Below the pieces are notes generated by a model. The model ran no database searches. It had not been told where the DNA came from and saw nothing but the letters and a program-made list of their open reading frames with translations. A program made the translations under genes and the position numbers. Shown here one piece after another: positions 27,923 through 31,465 of a stretch of 64,000 nucleotides of DNA. Every line of letters begins with the position of its first letter. Within the stretch, counting starts at the first letter, position 1. Source of the DNA: an uncultured Elusimicrobia bacterium (GTDB lineage: Bacteria; Elusimicrobiota; Endomicrobiia; Endomicrobiales; CAIRNS01); assembly GCA_903880015.1 (NCBI GenBank), contig CAIRNS010000022.1:5544-69543 (forward strand), in the 5' to 3' direction.

Positions 27923-30900
27923 TTATGCCGCCGACAGAAACAATGCGATGTTTTCCTGCAAAGCGCTGTCTATGGACTTAACCACAGTTGACTGTATGGC
28001 CGCCGGGGACAGAGCGGCTGCAAGCTGTTGGATGTTCAAATCTTCGTTACCGCCCCAGATCTTGGCGTTGGTTTCGGCGCATACAACAACATGTACCTGT
28101 CTCGCTCCGCCTGCCATCAGGCGCTGCACTGCGTCTTGAACCGTTACCGTATCGCGGCCGGGCAGATTGCGCGCATCCACCGAGATTATCTGCCCGGTGA
28201 GAGTCCCTATCATCGATTCATCTTGAGAAATTGACCAAATCACCGTCATGTTCAATGGCGCCAACGCTGCGGCAACACGTGCATGATCTGTCCACCGTGA
28301 ACTATCAAGAGCAACCCTTACCGCAGTCCTGGCCGAGATACCTGCATCCAATTGAACGCCCGCACAAAATCTTCTCAAAGAATCTGCGTCACCGTCTCCA
28401 ATCACGCGAGCATCGATAATCAAACCCCTAAATATCCCGCTCCACCAGTTGATGTCTTCAAAATACTCCTTTTCTTTTTCGAGTGTAAATTTCTCACTGA
28501 CCGGCACATAAGGGATATTGAGCCACAACGCCCGGTCTCCGGAAGCTGCTGCAACACGAGCTTGCTGAGCGATAGTCATTTCAATAAATCTTGAGAATGC
28601 CGGCCCGATTTTTTCGCCGGGAAAGATGGTCTCCAGTTCAGCCAACCTGCGTTTGACCCGGCGGTTAAATACGATATCTTCATTTTCATAGAGTTTGATC
28701 AAGCGCTTGCGCGGCCCGGACATGCTCTGGTACAGCTCGCGGGCAAGGCGGAGCTCGTCAATACGCAGACGTTCAATTGTTTCTCTGCTAAACGATCCAT
28801 TCTCGCGTACAGCAAGCTGGCGCAGCCGGGAAAACTGTTCCCTGAACACGACAGCCGTCCCGTCAATATTGGCATCTCGACACGCACTTTCCCAATCAAT
28901 ATACACCGGATCAATCAACGACGGCGACTCGCCCGGAAGCTGCCAAGGAAGCGTCCCGCGAACCGAGAGCGACAGGCGGACCGGCGATTCATCAGTGCTC
29001 TTGACGAGATCTCCCATGGAACCCACGCGGCCATTGCCCAAAGCGCTGATATCGGTCTCGACAACACAGGTGGCATCTTCCTTCCCTGTTTCTTCACGCC
29101 GCGCTGTCCTCGTGTGCTGTAGTGATGGAGATAATTGCGCGATCTCAGCAGCAAGAGCATCAAAGTAAACTTTTAGCAAATCCCAGCGCGAACTTTTTTC
29201 CGGCAGGATGTTAAGTAATTGAAATTCTAATGCGAACACATCGTCGGCAGCCACTTTAATCCAGTACATCTTTCCTTGTTCTTCTAAAAAGACAGGCTTA
29301 AAACTACCCAGCCCCATTGCGGCTATGCCGTTATTATAAGAGGGGTCAAGAATGCAGCCGTTGAGTTCTTTAACAAGGATGCGCCCAGCATTATCTAAAA
29401 TTAGTTGATCCCGTAGGGGATGATTCAGAAGCGCCACAATCCGCTTGCGGTCAGGAGCGAATTCATGATCAGCCAGTGGCTGATAATGTGAAATCTCAAG
29501 GTACATCACCGGTACGCGGACGGGGTTTGTTGTGCCCACTACTACCTGTTCACCAAACACTTTGACCATCAGCGGCACCGGCTTTCCACCATCAGGATCA
29601 GGCACAGGAATTTCGACTGTACCTACCCAGACAAGGTTCTTTTTCCCCTCTGGCCGGTCGGACAGTTTTTGCAACAACAGTGTCTGCTGCCCCAGTCGAG
29701 CGCGTTCAAATATCGCTTCTTTTACAACACTGCTTAACGAACCGTTAGCACTACGCACAGACCATGCCCCACTCAACGCAGGATGCTTTTCACCAATGTA
29801 ACTGCGGTCTTTGCGGGCAAAACGGACCAGACGCAGCGCAAGAGCGCCGGCATGGAGAAAACTCTTTACATATTTGTACCCTTCTGAAAATAAAATAGCT
29901 GTATTATTGGCGTCAACACCCTCAGCATGACGCTTGGCTATTGCAAGCATAATTTTGCCACTCTGCTCCGGATCGGTTATCTCAACCGCGTTCACCCCTG
30001 TCACCAGTACCGCGGCATCATCCTGTCCTTGAGCCATACGGTCACCGAGATACAGTATTTCGCTGGGCGCTGCCGCAAACAGATCGGCAGCTAAACTAAT
30101 CGCATATGACTTGTCGAACGGTGCACAATAGATTAAATTATCGCAATTCTGAAAATAGGCACGATTTTCTTGAAGAACGCGGTCCTGTTGATCTTTTGAC
30201 ATCGAACTCCACGGTGAATTCGGATGGGATGGATCAAAATTAAAAATATACGCGATGCCTTCTGCAGCAAGGGCCTCATTGAGACGCGCATAATATGCGG
30301 GAATCAGCGGAGAAAGTTCCTTGTGAACATACATGCGAATCTTGCCGGGCTCGAACTCAAGCCGAAGAGGATCGTGAAGTATACCCGTTTTTTCACTGCT
30401 CATCGCGGTAGAAAGAACTGTGTAATCAAAAGGATAATCTGACGGAGATCCTTGATGAAACTCTTCCCCGCCAATGCCGGAAGCGCGCCACTGTTCCTGT
30501 TCTGCGATGACCTCTGCCCAAACAGTCCGGGCAATTTTTTTTACTTGTGTTTTCATAGCACCGTTAAAATCATCTTTATCCAGAACATATGAATGGTTTT
30601 CATTGCCTTTTTGTGTTCCAATGCTGTAACTCCACCGCTGAGCGCCGTTTGAACAAAATGCATGCAACAAGGGACAGAGCTTGATCCGTATATCAGCTAT
30701 CATAGTACGCAATAAGGGGTCTTTTATATTGTATATGGAAAAATCTTCATTCATCACTATTGCCTTAAGGCGCGCCACTGCATCATTGGTTGATTCAGCA
30801 GGAACGGAAAGATCTCTGATGGAGCTTCTTTTCAATTTTGCCATATCTGCTTTAGTCAGAGCTCTGACGCGCTGGCGCATCTCATACAACATAAGCGGAT

Positions 30901-31465
30901 CAATAACATTCTTTCGGGCATTGTCAAATATATTCGCGCTCACCAGAACAACGGGTATATCTGCGCGCAAAACAAGAGCAAGCGCTGCAAGATTTTTTTG
31001 ACTCATCCGTCCATTTTTAATCAATAAGGTCCCATCAATATCAGTTGCCACCAGTTTCGGCGTCAACTCTCCTCGTTCAATAAATGCCAGCGCCTCCTGC
31101 ACGGTTAATGGACGGTCGCGAGGCAGAATGCGGGGGTCTTTGACAATCTTTGCGAGTTGCAGAATAGTGAGCGGATCGGGCTGACGACGGCGCAAAGCGG
31201 CGTAACGGTGCGAGGACAAGAACAGGGAAATTTTCATCGCTCCATCCGAGGTGGTTGGATTATTTATCATGAACGCAGCTGCAGTTTTATCGAGTGAATC
31301 AACGACAGAAATATCAGCATTATTCAACAGTTCTTCCAAATATTTTACCTTGTCTACGCCAAGAGCAGGGTCGCTACGCACGATGGTTAAGAGCATACTG
31401 CGCGTGGTATTATTTATATCGCCGGTGTATGAATGTGCACTGTGATTGCGATACACGCGTTGCAA
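27923..31465 (-). CDS. Large (about 1160-1180 aa) protein with an N-terminal split HAD-IIB (Cof-like) phosphatase module; remainder unassigned
   Basis: HAD motifs in order: VATDIDGTLL (nt ~31029-31043), VVLVSAN, FDKSYAI, LYLGDRMAQGQDDAAVL (nt ~30000-30060), with a cap insertion of about 330 aa. The track start is a TTG overlapping the giant gene by 52 nt. The first ATG is at 31396, 17 nt after the giant gene's TAA. Confidence 0.6.
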   Translation of the reverse strand: MQRVYRNHSAHSYTGDINNTTRSMLLTIVRSDPALGVDKVKYLEELLNNADISVVDSLDKTAAAFMINNPTTSDGAMKISLFLSSHRYAALRRRQPDPLTILQLAKIVKDPRILPRDRPLTVQEALAFIERGELTPKLVATDIDGTLLIKNGRMSQKNLAALALVLRADIPVVLVSANIFDNARKNVIDPLMLYEMRQRVRALTKADMAKLKRSSIRDLSVPAESTNDAVARLKAIVMNEDFSIYNIKDPLLRTMIADIRIKLCPLLHAFCSNGAQRWSYSIGTQKGNENHSYVLDKDDFNGAMKTQVKKIARTVWAEVIAEQEQWRASGIGGEEFHQGSPSDYPFDYTVLSTAMSSEKTGILHDPLRLEFEPGKIRMYVHKELSPLIPAYYARLNEALAAEGIAYIFNFDPSHPNSPWSSMSKDQQDRVLQENRAYFQNCDNLIYCAPFDKSYAISLAADLFAAAPSEILYLGDRMAQGQDDAAVLVTGVNAVEITDPEQSGKIMLAIAKRHAEGVDANNTAILFSEGYKYVKSFLHAGALALRLVRFARKDRSYIGEKHPALSGAWSVRSANGSLSSVVKEAIFERARLGQQTLLLQKLSDRPEGKKNLVWVGTVEIPVPDPDGGKPVPLMVKVFGEQVVVGTTNPVRVPVMYLEISHYQPLADHEFAPDRKRIVALLNHPLRDQLILDNAGRILVKELNGCILDPSYNNGIAAMGLGSFKPVFLEEQGKMYWIKVAADDVFALEFQLLNILPEKSSRWDLLKVYFDALAAEIAQLSPSLQHTRTARREETGKEDATCVVETDISALGNGRVGSMGDLVKSTDESPVRLSLSVRGTLPWQLPGESPSLIDPVYIDWESACRDANIDGTAVVFREQFSRLRQLAVRENGSFSRETIERLRIDELRLARELYQSMSGPRKRLIKLYENEDIVFNRRVKRRLAELETIFPGEKIGPAFSRFIEMTIAQQARVAAASGDRALWLNIPYVPVSEKFTLEKEKEYFEDINWWSGIFRGLIIDARVIGDGDADSLRRFCAGVQLDAGISARTAVRVALDSSRWTDHARVAAALAPLNMTVIWSISQDESMIGTLTGQIISVDARNLPGRDTVTVQDAVQRLMAGGARQVHVVVCAETNAKIWGGNEDLNIQQLAAALSPAAIQSTVVKSIDSALQENIALFLSAA

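What the first reader, a model, noticed from the sequence alone, without database searches (positions are those of the whole stretch)
27923..31465. A ~1160-1180-aa partner gene tightly linked to the giant gene, with a split HAD phosphatase and ~650 aa of unassigned sequence
- The gene starts either 17 nt after the giant gene's TAA (ATG at 31396) or overlaps it (GTG at 31456 or TTG at 31465). No promoter or terminator is evident between them, so co-transcription is likely.
- Residues ~140-500 carry all four HAD motifs (DIDGTL, S in VLVSAN, K in FDKSYAI, GD...DD). They are interrupted by a cap insertion of about 330 aa, far larger than typical Cof-type caps.
- I could not assign the C-terminal ~650 aa to any family.
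- Together the two genes form an 11.7-kb, two-gene unit of unknown function.
Basis: partly seen in the sequence, partly recalled or inferred. Interest (0 to 1): 0.55.

Follow-up and report, generated by a model that had tools for sequence, protein, structure and literature searches.

The report
Frameshift-split tail of one giant gene
The "partner gene" is not a separate gene: it is the last third of a single 3,904-codon Elusimicrobiota gene, cut in two in this assembly by a 2-bp insertion, and it carries a real sugar-phosphatase-like (HAD) domain followed by about 640 residues that match nothing known.

Summary
The interpretation of a tightly linked partner gene and a two-gene unit does not hold.

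Five other assemblies of the same population read the "giant" and the "partner" as one continuous ORF of 3,904-3,928 aa. For three of them I read the DNA. The window differs by a CC insertion in a C-run (C6 at 31513-31518, C4 elsewhere). This is the only indel in about 30 kb of otherwise 99.8-99.9 % identical sequence. It gives the giant ORF a 33-codon out-of-frame tail and a premature TAA.

The intact protein belongs to an unnamed family of giant proteins, nearly all from Elusimicrobiota and with many copies per genome. The family shares an N-terminal membrane helix and a module of about 480 aa, followed by variable enzyme cargo.

The HAD domain is real. Both halves are independently supported, the nearest solved relative is alpha-phosphoglucomutase (4BND), and the cap is about 270 aa. 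The last ~640 aa have no detectable relative in Pfam, NCBIfam, PDB sequences or 1.84 billion representative proteins.

Whether the insertion is a real mutation or an assembly error cannot be decided here.

The parts
27923..39639 (-). One gene of 3,904 codons in its intact form. In this window it is 11,717 nt long because of a 2-nt insertion, and it is therefore called as two ORFs (2741 aa and 1157/1180 aa).
   Evidence: One search shows that this is the only frame-breaking indel among the four aligned alleles.
31513..31518 (-). Frameshift site: a run of six C on the coding strand, where every other assembly has four C (a +2 nt insertion).
   Evidence: One search shows it is the only indel in 31.7 kb against L001 and in 28.6 kb against L003.
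31414..31515 (-). Out-of-frame tail of 33 codons (PSCNG...HTPAI) plus the premature TAA that ends the 'giant' ORF in this assembly. The hydrophobic 'C-terminal helix' seen here is an artefact of the wrong frame.
31397..31519 (-). Stretch of the downstream frame that is already open before the ATG at 31396 and begins right after a TGA at 31522-31520. In the intact protein it encodes ...EPLLQWYRVAIHIPGYDYLQRVYRNHSAHSYTGDINNTTRS, the linker between the deaminase and HAD regions.
30872..31114 (-). N-terminal half of the HAD core (partner aa 95-175), with motif I DIDGTL at 31025-31042 and motif II VLVSAN at 30932-30949.
   Evidence: Pfam Hydrolase_3, profile positions 1-47. NCBIfam Cof/HAD-IIB models. 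Aligns with P0002 residues 544-644.
30119..30931 (-). Oversized cap insertion, about 270 aa between motifs II and III. Allele L002 carries a further in-frame tandem duplication of 20 aa here.
   Evidence: No Pfam match at E<=10 apart from noise.
29837..30154 (-). C-terminal half of the HAD core (partner aa 415-520), with the motif III Lys in FDKSYAI at 30098-30118 and motif IV GD-x6-DD at 30017-30049.
   Evidence: A profile of the cap-deleted partner plus P0002 hits PDB 4BND, alpha-phosphoglucomutase, at E=8.7e-5 across motifs III and IV. Aligns with P0002 residues 763-866.
27923..29836 (-). C-terminal ~640 aa (partner aa 521-1157, plus the stop codon) with no assignable family.
   Evidence: The single-sequence AF2 model is unusable, with mean pLDDT 35.8.
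31612..32061 (-). Cytidine/dCMP-deaminase-type zinc domain (aa 2527-2676), with HGE at aa 2573 and PCNHC at aa 2657. It is internal in the intact protein.
   Evidence: Pfam dCMP_cyt_deam_1 at 30.1 bits against a cut-off of 25. Motif positions. Weak PDB matches to CDA/TadA proteins.
35710..36144 (-). Cluster of about four membrane helices with CPBP/Rce1-like motifs: EELAFN at aa 1182, FSASH at aa 1213 and HMVFD at aa 1294.
   Evidence: Pfam Rce1-like at E=0.028, below its cut-off. Hydropathy. Motifs.
36160..36834 (-). Possible protein-kinase-like region (G-loop GAGGNG at aa 971). It overlaps the hotspot of allelic variation.
   Evidence: PADLOC mad6 at E=1.1e-4 and PD-T4-6 at E=0.0095. No Pfam hit. 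Variation.
38065..39639 (-). N-terminal membrane helix plus a conserved module of about 480 aa that defines the giant-protein family. Invariant residues are D85, H87, Q93, E115, G151, R433, G479, G480, H482, P501 and Y513.
   Evidence: AF2 with a 10-sequence alignment gave pLDDT 76.7 and pTM 0.71. No significant Foldseek/PDB match.
39677..39706 (-). Perfect sigma-70 consensus (TTGACA-18-TATAAT), whose -10 hexamer ends 37 nt upstream of the gene's ATG. It is the likely promoter of the whole 11.7-kb gene.

Best explanation
ORF 27923-31465 is the 3' third of a single giant gene (39639->27923, minus strand; 3,904 codons when intact).

What the insertion does:
- In this assembly two extra C in a C-run (31513-31518) shift the reading frame.
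- The upstream part then runs 33 wrong-frame codons into a TAA.
- The downstream part appears as a free-standing ORF whose 'start codons' are ordinary internal codons.

What the intact protein looks like (shown by the searches cited below):
- It is anchored by an N-terminal helix.
- It belongs to an unnamed family of giant proteins, nearly all from Elusimicrobiota and present in many copies per genome.
- The family shares an N-terminal module of about 480 aa and carries variable enzyme cargo.
- In this member the cargo is a possible kinase-like region, a CPBP-like four-helix membrane block, a cytidine/dCMP-deaminase-type domain and an HAD-IIB domain with a cap of about 270 aa, followed by ~640 lineage-specific residues.

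What is inferred:
- The HAD domain keeps every catalytic residue (D119, D121, S153, K429, D452, D459/D460). It is therefore most likely an active Mg-dependent phosphoryl-transferase.
- I infer that it acts as a phosphatase or phosphomutase on a sugar phosphate.
- In the frameshifted form the protein would end just after the deaminase. The HAD part would be made only by inefficient re-initiation at ATG 31396, which has no Shine-Dalgarno sequence.

What cannot be decided: whether the insertion is a real recent mutation or a consensus error. I rate the two as about equally likely.
For: One gene, not two:
- Exhaustive phmmer places the partner at residues 2748-3904 of a 3,904-aa protein at 100 % identity.
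- The cluster has five sequences that read through the junction, from different sources (NCBI MCX5778930.1, NCBI MEI8217427.1, two ENA assemblies, JGI), against one split pair.
- At DNA level, L001 (Logan SRR20698644), L002 (GCA_037143935.1) and L003 (ENA ERZ27245846) have C4 where the window has C6.
- This is the only indel in 31.7 kb and in 28.6 kb of 99.9 % and 99.8 % identical sequence.
- L002 is the most divergent allele and has two other indels, both in frame (12 and 60 nt).
- Gene order on both sides is the same in all loci.
- There is a perfect promoter upstream of the giant ATG and no terminator at the junction.

HAD domain:
- Pfam Hydrolase_3 matches the N-terminal half.
- A two-sequence profile with the cap removed hits alpha-phosphoglucomutase 4BND at E=8.7e-5 across motifs III and IV, with the same GD-x6-(N/D)D spacing. 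Most of the weaker hits are HAD or phosphomannomutase proteins.
- P0002 aligns to both halves, with 117 aa between them where this protein has about 260 aa.

Family:
- 17 giant proteins share only residues ~15-525.
- 253 related loci were found in species-representative genomes. Of the 79 that were listed, all but one are from Elusimicrobiota, with 9-10 copies in some genomes.
- Their ORFs are 825 to more than 3,800 aa long.
- Their cargo includes glycogen-metabolism enzymes, phosphatases and kinases.
Against: - No reads are available, so the C6 allele cannot be shown to be real or erroneous.
- A +2 change in a four-base run is an unusual error for short-read assemblies. The same contig shows no other indel, which argues against a generally noisy assembly and leaves a real mutation fully possible.
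- The C-terminal half of the HAD is not detected by Pfam itself. Its support rests on a two-sequence profile and on P0002.
- The substrate inference is indirect. It rests on the nearest solved relative and on the cargo of paralogs.
- Topology (cytoplasmic or periplasmic) is unresolved.
- Within-population changes in the gene are mostly non-synonymous (for example 51 non-synonymous against 25 synonymous between L002 and L003 in the N-terminal part). Constraint on much of the protein therefore looks weak.
Confidence: 0.85

Rival explanations
1. Programmed -1 ribosomal frameshifting, or phase variation, at the C-run. The C6 tract would be a regulated switch that lets the cell make either the 2741-aa form or the full-length fusion.
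For: - The break lies in a homopolymer.
- A -1 slip of tRNA-Pro on CCC-CCC would restore the downstream frame and give ...EPPLLQW... (my reading of the sequence).
- The contig shows no other indel, so the variant may be real.
Against: - The site is not conserved. Five other sequences have C4 and a continuous ORF, so no frameshifting is needed.
- The 93 nt downstream fold no better than shuffled sequence (z=-0.01).
- The preceding base is A, so there is no X_XXY_YYZ heptamer.
- A run of 4-6 C is short for slipped-strand phase variation, and the change is +2 rather than +/-1.
Confidence: 0.06
2. A true two-gene operon: a giant protein and a separately translated 1157-aa HAD partner, with the fused form elsewhere being the derived or erroneous state.
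For: The window itself reads as two ORFs with an ATG 17 nt after the stop. The deposited annotation of this contig lists them as two proteins (P0006 and P0007).
Against: - Five independent sequences read through the junction, including the most divergent allele.
- No purine-rich ribosome-binding sequence precedes any of the three candidate starts.
- The downstream frame is open from exactly the C-run onward.
- No stand-alone homologue of the partner exists among 1.84 billion representative proteins.
Confidence: 0.03
3. A polymorphic toxin with an immunity or accessory gene: a giant exported protein ending in a deaminase toxin, followed by a protective partner.
For: In the split form the deaminase domain sits near the C-terminus of the 2741-aa ORF (aa 2527-2676). 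There is a faint MafB19-deaminase match at E=0.064.
Against: - In the intact protein the deaminase is internal, with 1,228 residues after it.
- The best match is the housekeeping-type dCMP_cyt_deam_1 family.
- The downstream sequence is 1157 aa long and contiguous with the deaminase, not a small immunity gene.
- PADLOC gives no toxin or defence-system assignment beyond a weak kinase-like match.
Confidence: 0.01

Closest known systems
HAD superfamily, subfamily IIB (Cof-type phosphatases; phosphomannomutase / alpha-phosphoglucomutase type, e.g. PDB 4BND)
   Same: - All four catalytic motifs are present in the right order.
- The cap is inserted between motifs II and III.
- The motif IV spacing GD-x6-DD is the same as in 4BND (GD-x6-ND).
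- The Pfam Hydrolase_3 and NCBIfam Cof/HAD-IIB models match the N-terminal half.
   Different: - The cap is about 270 aa, roughly twice the 117 aa of its nearest relative P0002.
- The domain is embedded at residues ~2840-3270 of a 3,904-aa protein rather than being a 230-300-aa enzyme.
- The C-terminal half falls below Pfam's detection.
- The fold could not be verified.
P0002, an uncharacterised 1,349-aa metagenomic protein (JGI/ENA). It is the only sequence relative of the partner region.
   Same: It aligns to both halves of the HAD core at 27-34 % identity, including the lead-in PLTV.EA....G.L.PK.
   Different: - It has a shorter cap and different neighbouring domains (a PRTase-like domain before the HAD).
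- It has no similarity to the last ~640 aa.
- It has a different N-terminus, shared with P0009, which carries a 4-alpha-glucanotransferase domain.
- It lies beside a serine recombinase and a DnaB-like gene.
The giant-protein family defined by the N-terminal module (unnamed, mainly Elusimicrobiota; P0010-P0026 and the 253 loci)
   Same: The upstream 'giant' ORF has the membrane helix, the module and all of its invariant residues. It is multi-kilobase in length with sparse recognisable enzyme domains.
   Different: The cargo is not shared. Beyond the module only two paralogs match any part (L013 to aa 1417-1882, L009 to aa 1093-1298), and none matches the HAD or C-terminal region.
Giant genes of Omnitrophota and related phyla (bioRxiv 10.1101/2023.11.21.568195)
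   Same: Very long genes from uncultivated lineages, with N-terminal regions that largely lack identifiable domains (the paper's own words).
   Different: Those proteins are an order of magnitude longer and are described with peptidase, dockerin-type and cell-wall-degrading domains. Nothing in that text describes this N-terminal module or this domain set.

Membership tests
HAD superfamily, subfamily IIB | Motif I DxD(G)T with both aspartates | tested here: met
   DIDGTL at partner aa 119-124, inside the Pfam Hydrolase_3 match.
HAD superfamily, subfamily IIB | Motif II Ser/Thr at the end of the second core strand | tested here: met
   S153 in VLVSAN lies within the stretch aligned to Hydrolase_3 profile positions 1-47. 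It is conserved in P0002 (VSGAN).
HAD superfamily, subfamily IIB | Motif III Lys and motif IV GD...(N/D)D | tested here: met
   K429 and GD452-x6-DD460. The profile match to 4BND covers both motifs at E=8.7e-5. Pfam itself does not detect this half.
HAD superfamily, subfamily IIB | C2-type cap inserted between motifs II and III | tested here: met
   The insertion is in the right place but is about 270 aa, against 117 aa in P0002.
HAD superfamily, subfamily IIB | Rossmannoid core fold | tested here: inconclusive
   The single-sequence AF2 model has mean pLDDT 35.8 and no residue above 70. No alignment deep enough to do better could be built.
HAD superfamily, subfamily IIB | Mg-dependent phosphoryl transfer | not testable with these tools
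   Needs an enzyme assay.
Independent gene (operon partner) | A separate ORF with its own start in related genomes | tested here: not met
   It is continuous with the upstream ORF in five other sequences. No stand-alone homologue exists.
Independent gene (operon partner) | A ribosome-binding site before the start codon | tested here: not met
   No purine-rich stretch lies upstream of ATG 31396, GTG 31456 or TTG 31465 (sequence).
Giant-protein family with the N-terminal module (mainly Elusimicrobiota) | N-terminal membrane helix followed by the ~480-aa module with invariant D85, H87, Q93, E115, R433 and GG.H482 | tested here: met
   phmmer E-values of 1e-75 to 4e-12 against 17 members over residues ~15-525. 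Invariant columns. Helix.
Cytidine/dCMP deaminase fold (upstream part of the same protein) | HxE and PCxxC zinc motifs, and a Pfam score above the cut-off | tested here: met
   HGE at aa 2573 and PCNHC at aa 2657. dCMP_cyt_deam_1 scores 30.1 bits against 25. The 84-aa spacing implies an insertion of about 55 aa.
Programmed -1 frameshift site | A slippery site conserved in relatives, with a downstream stimulatory structure | tested here: not met
   Relatives have C4 and need no shift. The downstream fold has z=-0.01.
Polymorphic toxin with immunity gene | The toxin domain at the extreme C-terminus, followed by a small immunity gene | tested here: not met
   The deaminase is internal in the intact 3,904-aa protein. 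The next gene downstream is a flavodoxin-like oxidoreductase.
CPBP / Rce1-like intramembrane protease (upstream part) | EExxxR, FxxxH and HxxxN/D motifs in membrane helices | tested here: inconclusive
   EELAFN (Arg replaced by Asn), FSASH and HMVFD are present in hydrophobic segments. Pfam scores 15.1 bits against a cut-off of 22.4.

The most novel reading that the evidence does not exclude
The gene is one member of an undescribed class of membrane-anchored giant proteins, found mainly in Elusimicrobiota. It has 253 loci in species-representative genomes and up to ten copies per genome.

- A conserved N-terminal module with a catalytic-looking D-x-H / E / R / GG-x-H signature has no detectable structural relative.
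- This module is joined to freely exchanged enzyme cargo: glycogen enzymes, phosphatases, kinases, deaminases.
- In this reading, the HAD domain with its doubled cap and the ~640-aa orphan tail are lineage-specific inventions with new folds.
- The locally hypervariable kinase-like segment, set in an otherwise clonal background, would mark a region under diversifying selection.
Probability: 0.3. Interest if true: 0.6.

Novelty: new variant of a known kind. Interest (0 to 1): 0.3.

Why it matters
- For annotation: a 2-bp indel turned one giant gene into a false operon, with a spurious C-terminal helix and three spurious start codons. Any synteny, co-expression or AlphaFold-Multimer work on the "pair" would be misdirected.
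- For biology: the real object is a 3,904-aa protein in a large, unnamed family of giant proteins found mainly in Elusimicrobiota. Most of its sequence, including the last ~640 aa, has no detectable relative. The family is a defined target for structural and functional work.
- The finding as stated, a partner gene, is not a discovery.

Tried and rejected
- The search for homologous proteins on the partner found nothing. A genome-contig scan with the partner found no relative. The E. coli genome and plasmid collections gave no match.
- Single-sequence AF2 of the full partner gave mean pLDDT 35.8. The model is unusable and was not sent to fold search.
- Pfam on ten sub-segments at E<=10 gave nothing beyond Hydrolase_3.
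- PDB sequence searches with the whole partner, the fused protein, the two halves of the C-terminal region, the N-module profile and a version of that profile with the helical insert removed gave no significant hits.
- Foldseek of the confident N-module model against the PDB gave a best E-value of 0.34. Erythromycin esterase EreC appears at rank 21 with E=1.8. My recollection that D-x-H / E / R / GG-x-H resembles the Ere/ChaN/TraB-type signature is therefore an untested lead, not a result.
- A BLASTP hint that the last ~30 aa resemble the PRTase motif of P0002 is not significant (E=2.4).
- Self-comparison found no internal repeats.
- Two metagenome-contig scans for the junction sequence returned nothing and then five unrelated chance matches, so no further C4/C6 counts were obtained.
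- A diversity-generating retroelement was considered for the variation hotspot. It was rejected because all substitution types occur, not only changes at adenines.
- The look-up of encoding contigs has no record of the window's own 1157-aa product, so the source record and assembler could not be identified.

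
Full report
**Observation.** The ORF 27923..31465 on the minus strand exists (1180 aa from TTG). The upstream 2741-aa ORF (31414..39639) ends in TAA at 31416-31414, 17 nt before the ATG. In ATG numbering the four HAD motifs are DIDGTL 119-124, VLVSAN 150-155, FDKSYAI 427-433 and LGDRMAQGQDD 450-460. Pfam finds only the first 46 residues of Hydrolase_3, at 22.5 bits against a cut-off of 20.9. 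NCBIfam gives weak Cof/HAD-IIB matches to the same stretch. The stretch between motif II and motif III is about 272 aa, not about 330 aa. No terminator-like site lies between the two ORFs. One weak promoter-like match (9 of 12) lies at 31494-31466.

**The two ORFs are one gene.** An exhaustive phmmer search of 1.84 billion representative proteins returned two hits. The first is a 3,904-aa protein in which the partner is residues 2748-3904 at 100 % identity. The second is a distant relative, P0002, at E=4.7e-4.

The 3,904-aa protein's cluster has seven members:
- three of 3,904 aa, among them MCX5778930.1 from an Elusimicrobia MAG;
- one of 3,928 aa (MEI8217427.1);
- one JGI partial of 2,632 aa that also reads across the junction;
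- one pair of 2,741 and 1,157 aa on a single 73.6-kb contig, which is the window's form.

All the fused proteins read ...LTLSVEPLLQWYRVAIHIPGYDYLQRVYRN..., whereas the window's giant reads ...LTLSVEPPSCNGIVLPYTF...TPAI*. At DNA level three independent assemblies have GAACCCCTCCTG where the window has GAACCCCCCTCCTG. These are L001 from Logan SRR20698644, L002 from GCA_037143935.1 and L003 from ENA ERZ27245846.

The extra CC is the only indel in 31,715 bp against L001 (21 mismatches) and in 28,631 bp against L003 (49 mismatches). L002 is the most divergent allele and has two further indels, of 12 and 60 nt, both in frame. In the window the downstream frame opens immediately after a TGA at 31522-31520, which is exactly at the C-run. 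Gene order on both sides is the same in every locus: pyruvate kinase and pyruvate:ferredoxin oxidoreductase subunits upstream, and a flavodoxin-like protein, a GT2 glycosyltransferase and a YaiO-type barrel downstream.

The intact, ancestral state is therefore one 3,904-codon gene. The last 33 residues of the "giant", including the hydrophobic stretch my hydropathy scan flagged, are wrong-frame sequence.

**Real mutation, error or programmed event?** Programmed frameshifting is unlikely. The site is not conserved, since the relatives have C4 and need no shift. There is no X_XXY_YYZ heptamer. The 93 nt downstream fold no better than shuffled sequence (z=-0.01). The contig is not indel-prone, and +2 in a four-base run is not a typical short-read error, so a real recent mutation is as likely as a consensus error. 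No reads were available. Two metagenome scans for the junction sequence found nothing relevant.

**The HAD domain.**
- With the cap removed, Hydrolase_3 rises to 26.7 bits (E=5.7e-6), but still only over the N-terminal half.
- P0002 aligns to both halves: fused residues 2825-2915 with P0002 544-644, and 3176-3284 with 763-866. P0002 has 117 aa between the halves where this protein has about 260 aa.
- A profile of the two cap-deleted cores hits PDB 4BND, *Lactococcus* alpha-phosphoglucomutase, a phosphomannomutase-type HAD-IIB enzyme, at E=8.7e-5.
- That match runs across the motif III Lys and motif IV and has the same GD-x6-(N/D)D spacing.
- Most of the weaker hits are also HAD or phosphomannomutase proteins.
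- All catalytic residues are present. None is among the allelic differences.
- L002 carries a 20-aa tandem duplication inside the cap, which suggests a tolerant loop.

The split HAD with a doubled cap is therefore real. Whether it is a phosphatase or a mutase, and on what substrate, is inference.

**The C-terminal ~640 aa.**
- Pfam gives no hit at E<=10 and NCBIfam gives none.
- PDB sequence searches give nothing meaningful at E<=10.
- The exhaustive search found no relative, and none of the 80 related loci contains one.
- Single-sequence AF2 failed, with mean pLDDT 35.8.

The region remains an orphan confined to one species-level lineage.

**The whole protein.**
- The upstream part has an N-terminal helix and a cluster of about four helices at aa 1166-1310.
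- That cluster carries CPBP-like motifs, but its Pfam score is below the cut-off.
- There is a possible kinase-like region around G-loop 971 (PADLOC mad6 E=1.1e-4).
- There is a cytidine/dCMP-deaminase-type domain (30.1 bits against 25).
- In the deaminase domain HGE and PCNHC lie 84 aa apart, which implies an insertion.

A search with the upstream part found 17 giant proteins of 1.5-4.7 kaa that share only residues ~15-525. The invariant residues of this module are D85, H87, Q93, E115, G151, R433, G479, G480, H482, P501 and Y513. The cargo of these proteins includes GDE_C, GH77, starch synthase, transaldolase, histidine phosphatase, PP2C, APH kinase, methyltransferases, CsrA, cNMP-binding and receiver domains.

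A scan of species-representative genomes found 253 related loci. Of the 79 listed, all but one (a 2.5-kb contig binned as Nanoarchaeota) come from Elusimicrobiota, with 9-10 copies in single MAGs. ORFs that start at the module run from 825 aa to more than 3,800 aa. Beyond the module only two paralogs match any part of this protein, and none matches the partner region.

AF2 with a 10-sequence alignment gave a confident model of the module (pLDDT 76.7, pTM 0.71). Foldseek against the PDB found nothing significant, with a best E-value of 0.34. Profile searches of PDB sequences found nothing either. I found no description of this family in the papers searched.

**Verdict.** The "partner gene" and the "11.7-kb two-gene unit" are one gene. 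The HAD call and the orphan status of the tail stand. The finding as stated is ordinary: a frameshift-split ORF. The protein behind it is a moderately interesting, uncharacterised giant protein of a large family found mainly in Elusimicrobiota.

Noticed in passing
window 36205-37009 (-), gene nt 2631-3435, aa 877-1145: Variation hotspot.
- About 70 of the 101 variable sites among four alleles fall in this stretch, around the kinase-like G-loop.
- L003 has 43 private differences in 440 nt (about 10 %).
- The 12 flanking genes (14,121 nt) are identical between the window and L003.
- All substitution types occur, so the pattern is not DGR-like.
- It looks like a recombined divergent segment, diversifying selection, or a strain-mix assembly.
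   Followed up: partly
L002 (GCA_037143935.1), gene nt ~4078 and ~9427 (the latter inside the HAD cap, near window 30213): This allele carries two in-frame insertions: 12 nt, and a 60-nt tandem duplication bounded by GAATTCACYGTGGAGTTC. They add 24 aa without breaking the ORF.
   Followed up: partly
window 38065-39639 (-) and loci L005-L083: The N-terminal module defines a family with many copies per genome, unnamed in Pfam and NCBIfam, whose listed members are almost all from Elusimicrobiota. It has 253 loci in species-representative genomes and up to 10 per MAG. There is a confident AF2 model but no structural relative.
   Followed up: partly
window 16300-20660 (-): Two adjacent TPR / radical-SAM / SPASM genes (791 and 598 aa) have 38-40 % GC, against about 50 % in the rest of the window. 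They lie next to tRNA-Leu (16126-16213) and tRNA-Met (14383-14459). This may be a horizontally acquired island.
   Followed up: no
window 39869-40900 (-): The pyruvate kinase gene encodes only the barrel domain (343 aa; the Pfam PK domain covers residues 3-322) and has no C-terminal PK domain.
   Followed up: no
L004 (ENA ERZ27247320), around gene 8001-12050: P0002, the only relative of the HAD region, lies beside a serine recombinase, a DnaB-like ATPase and a NYN-domain gene, which suggests a mobile element. Its N-terminal 240 aa are shared with P0009, a 1,803-aa protein that carries a 4-alpha-glucanotransferase domain.
   Followed up: partly
window 49444-54033 (-): A 1,529-aa protein made almost entirely of TPR repeats (TPR_1 E=1e-157). 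It lies upstream of a cluster with a polysaccharide pyruvyl transferase and a DUF5693 gene.
   Followed up: no
window 31612-32061 (-): In the deaminase domain the HxE and PCxxC motifs are 84 aa apart, where I recall a usual spacing of about 30 aa. This implies an insertion of about 55 aa. A local PDB alignment places TAD, not HxE, at the canonical distance from PCxxC, so catalytic competence is uncertain.
   Followed up: partly
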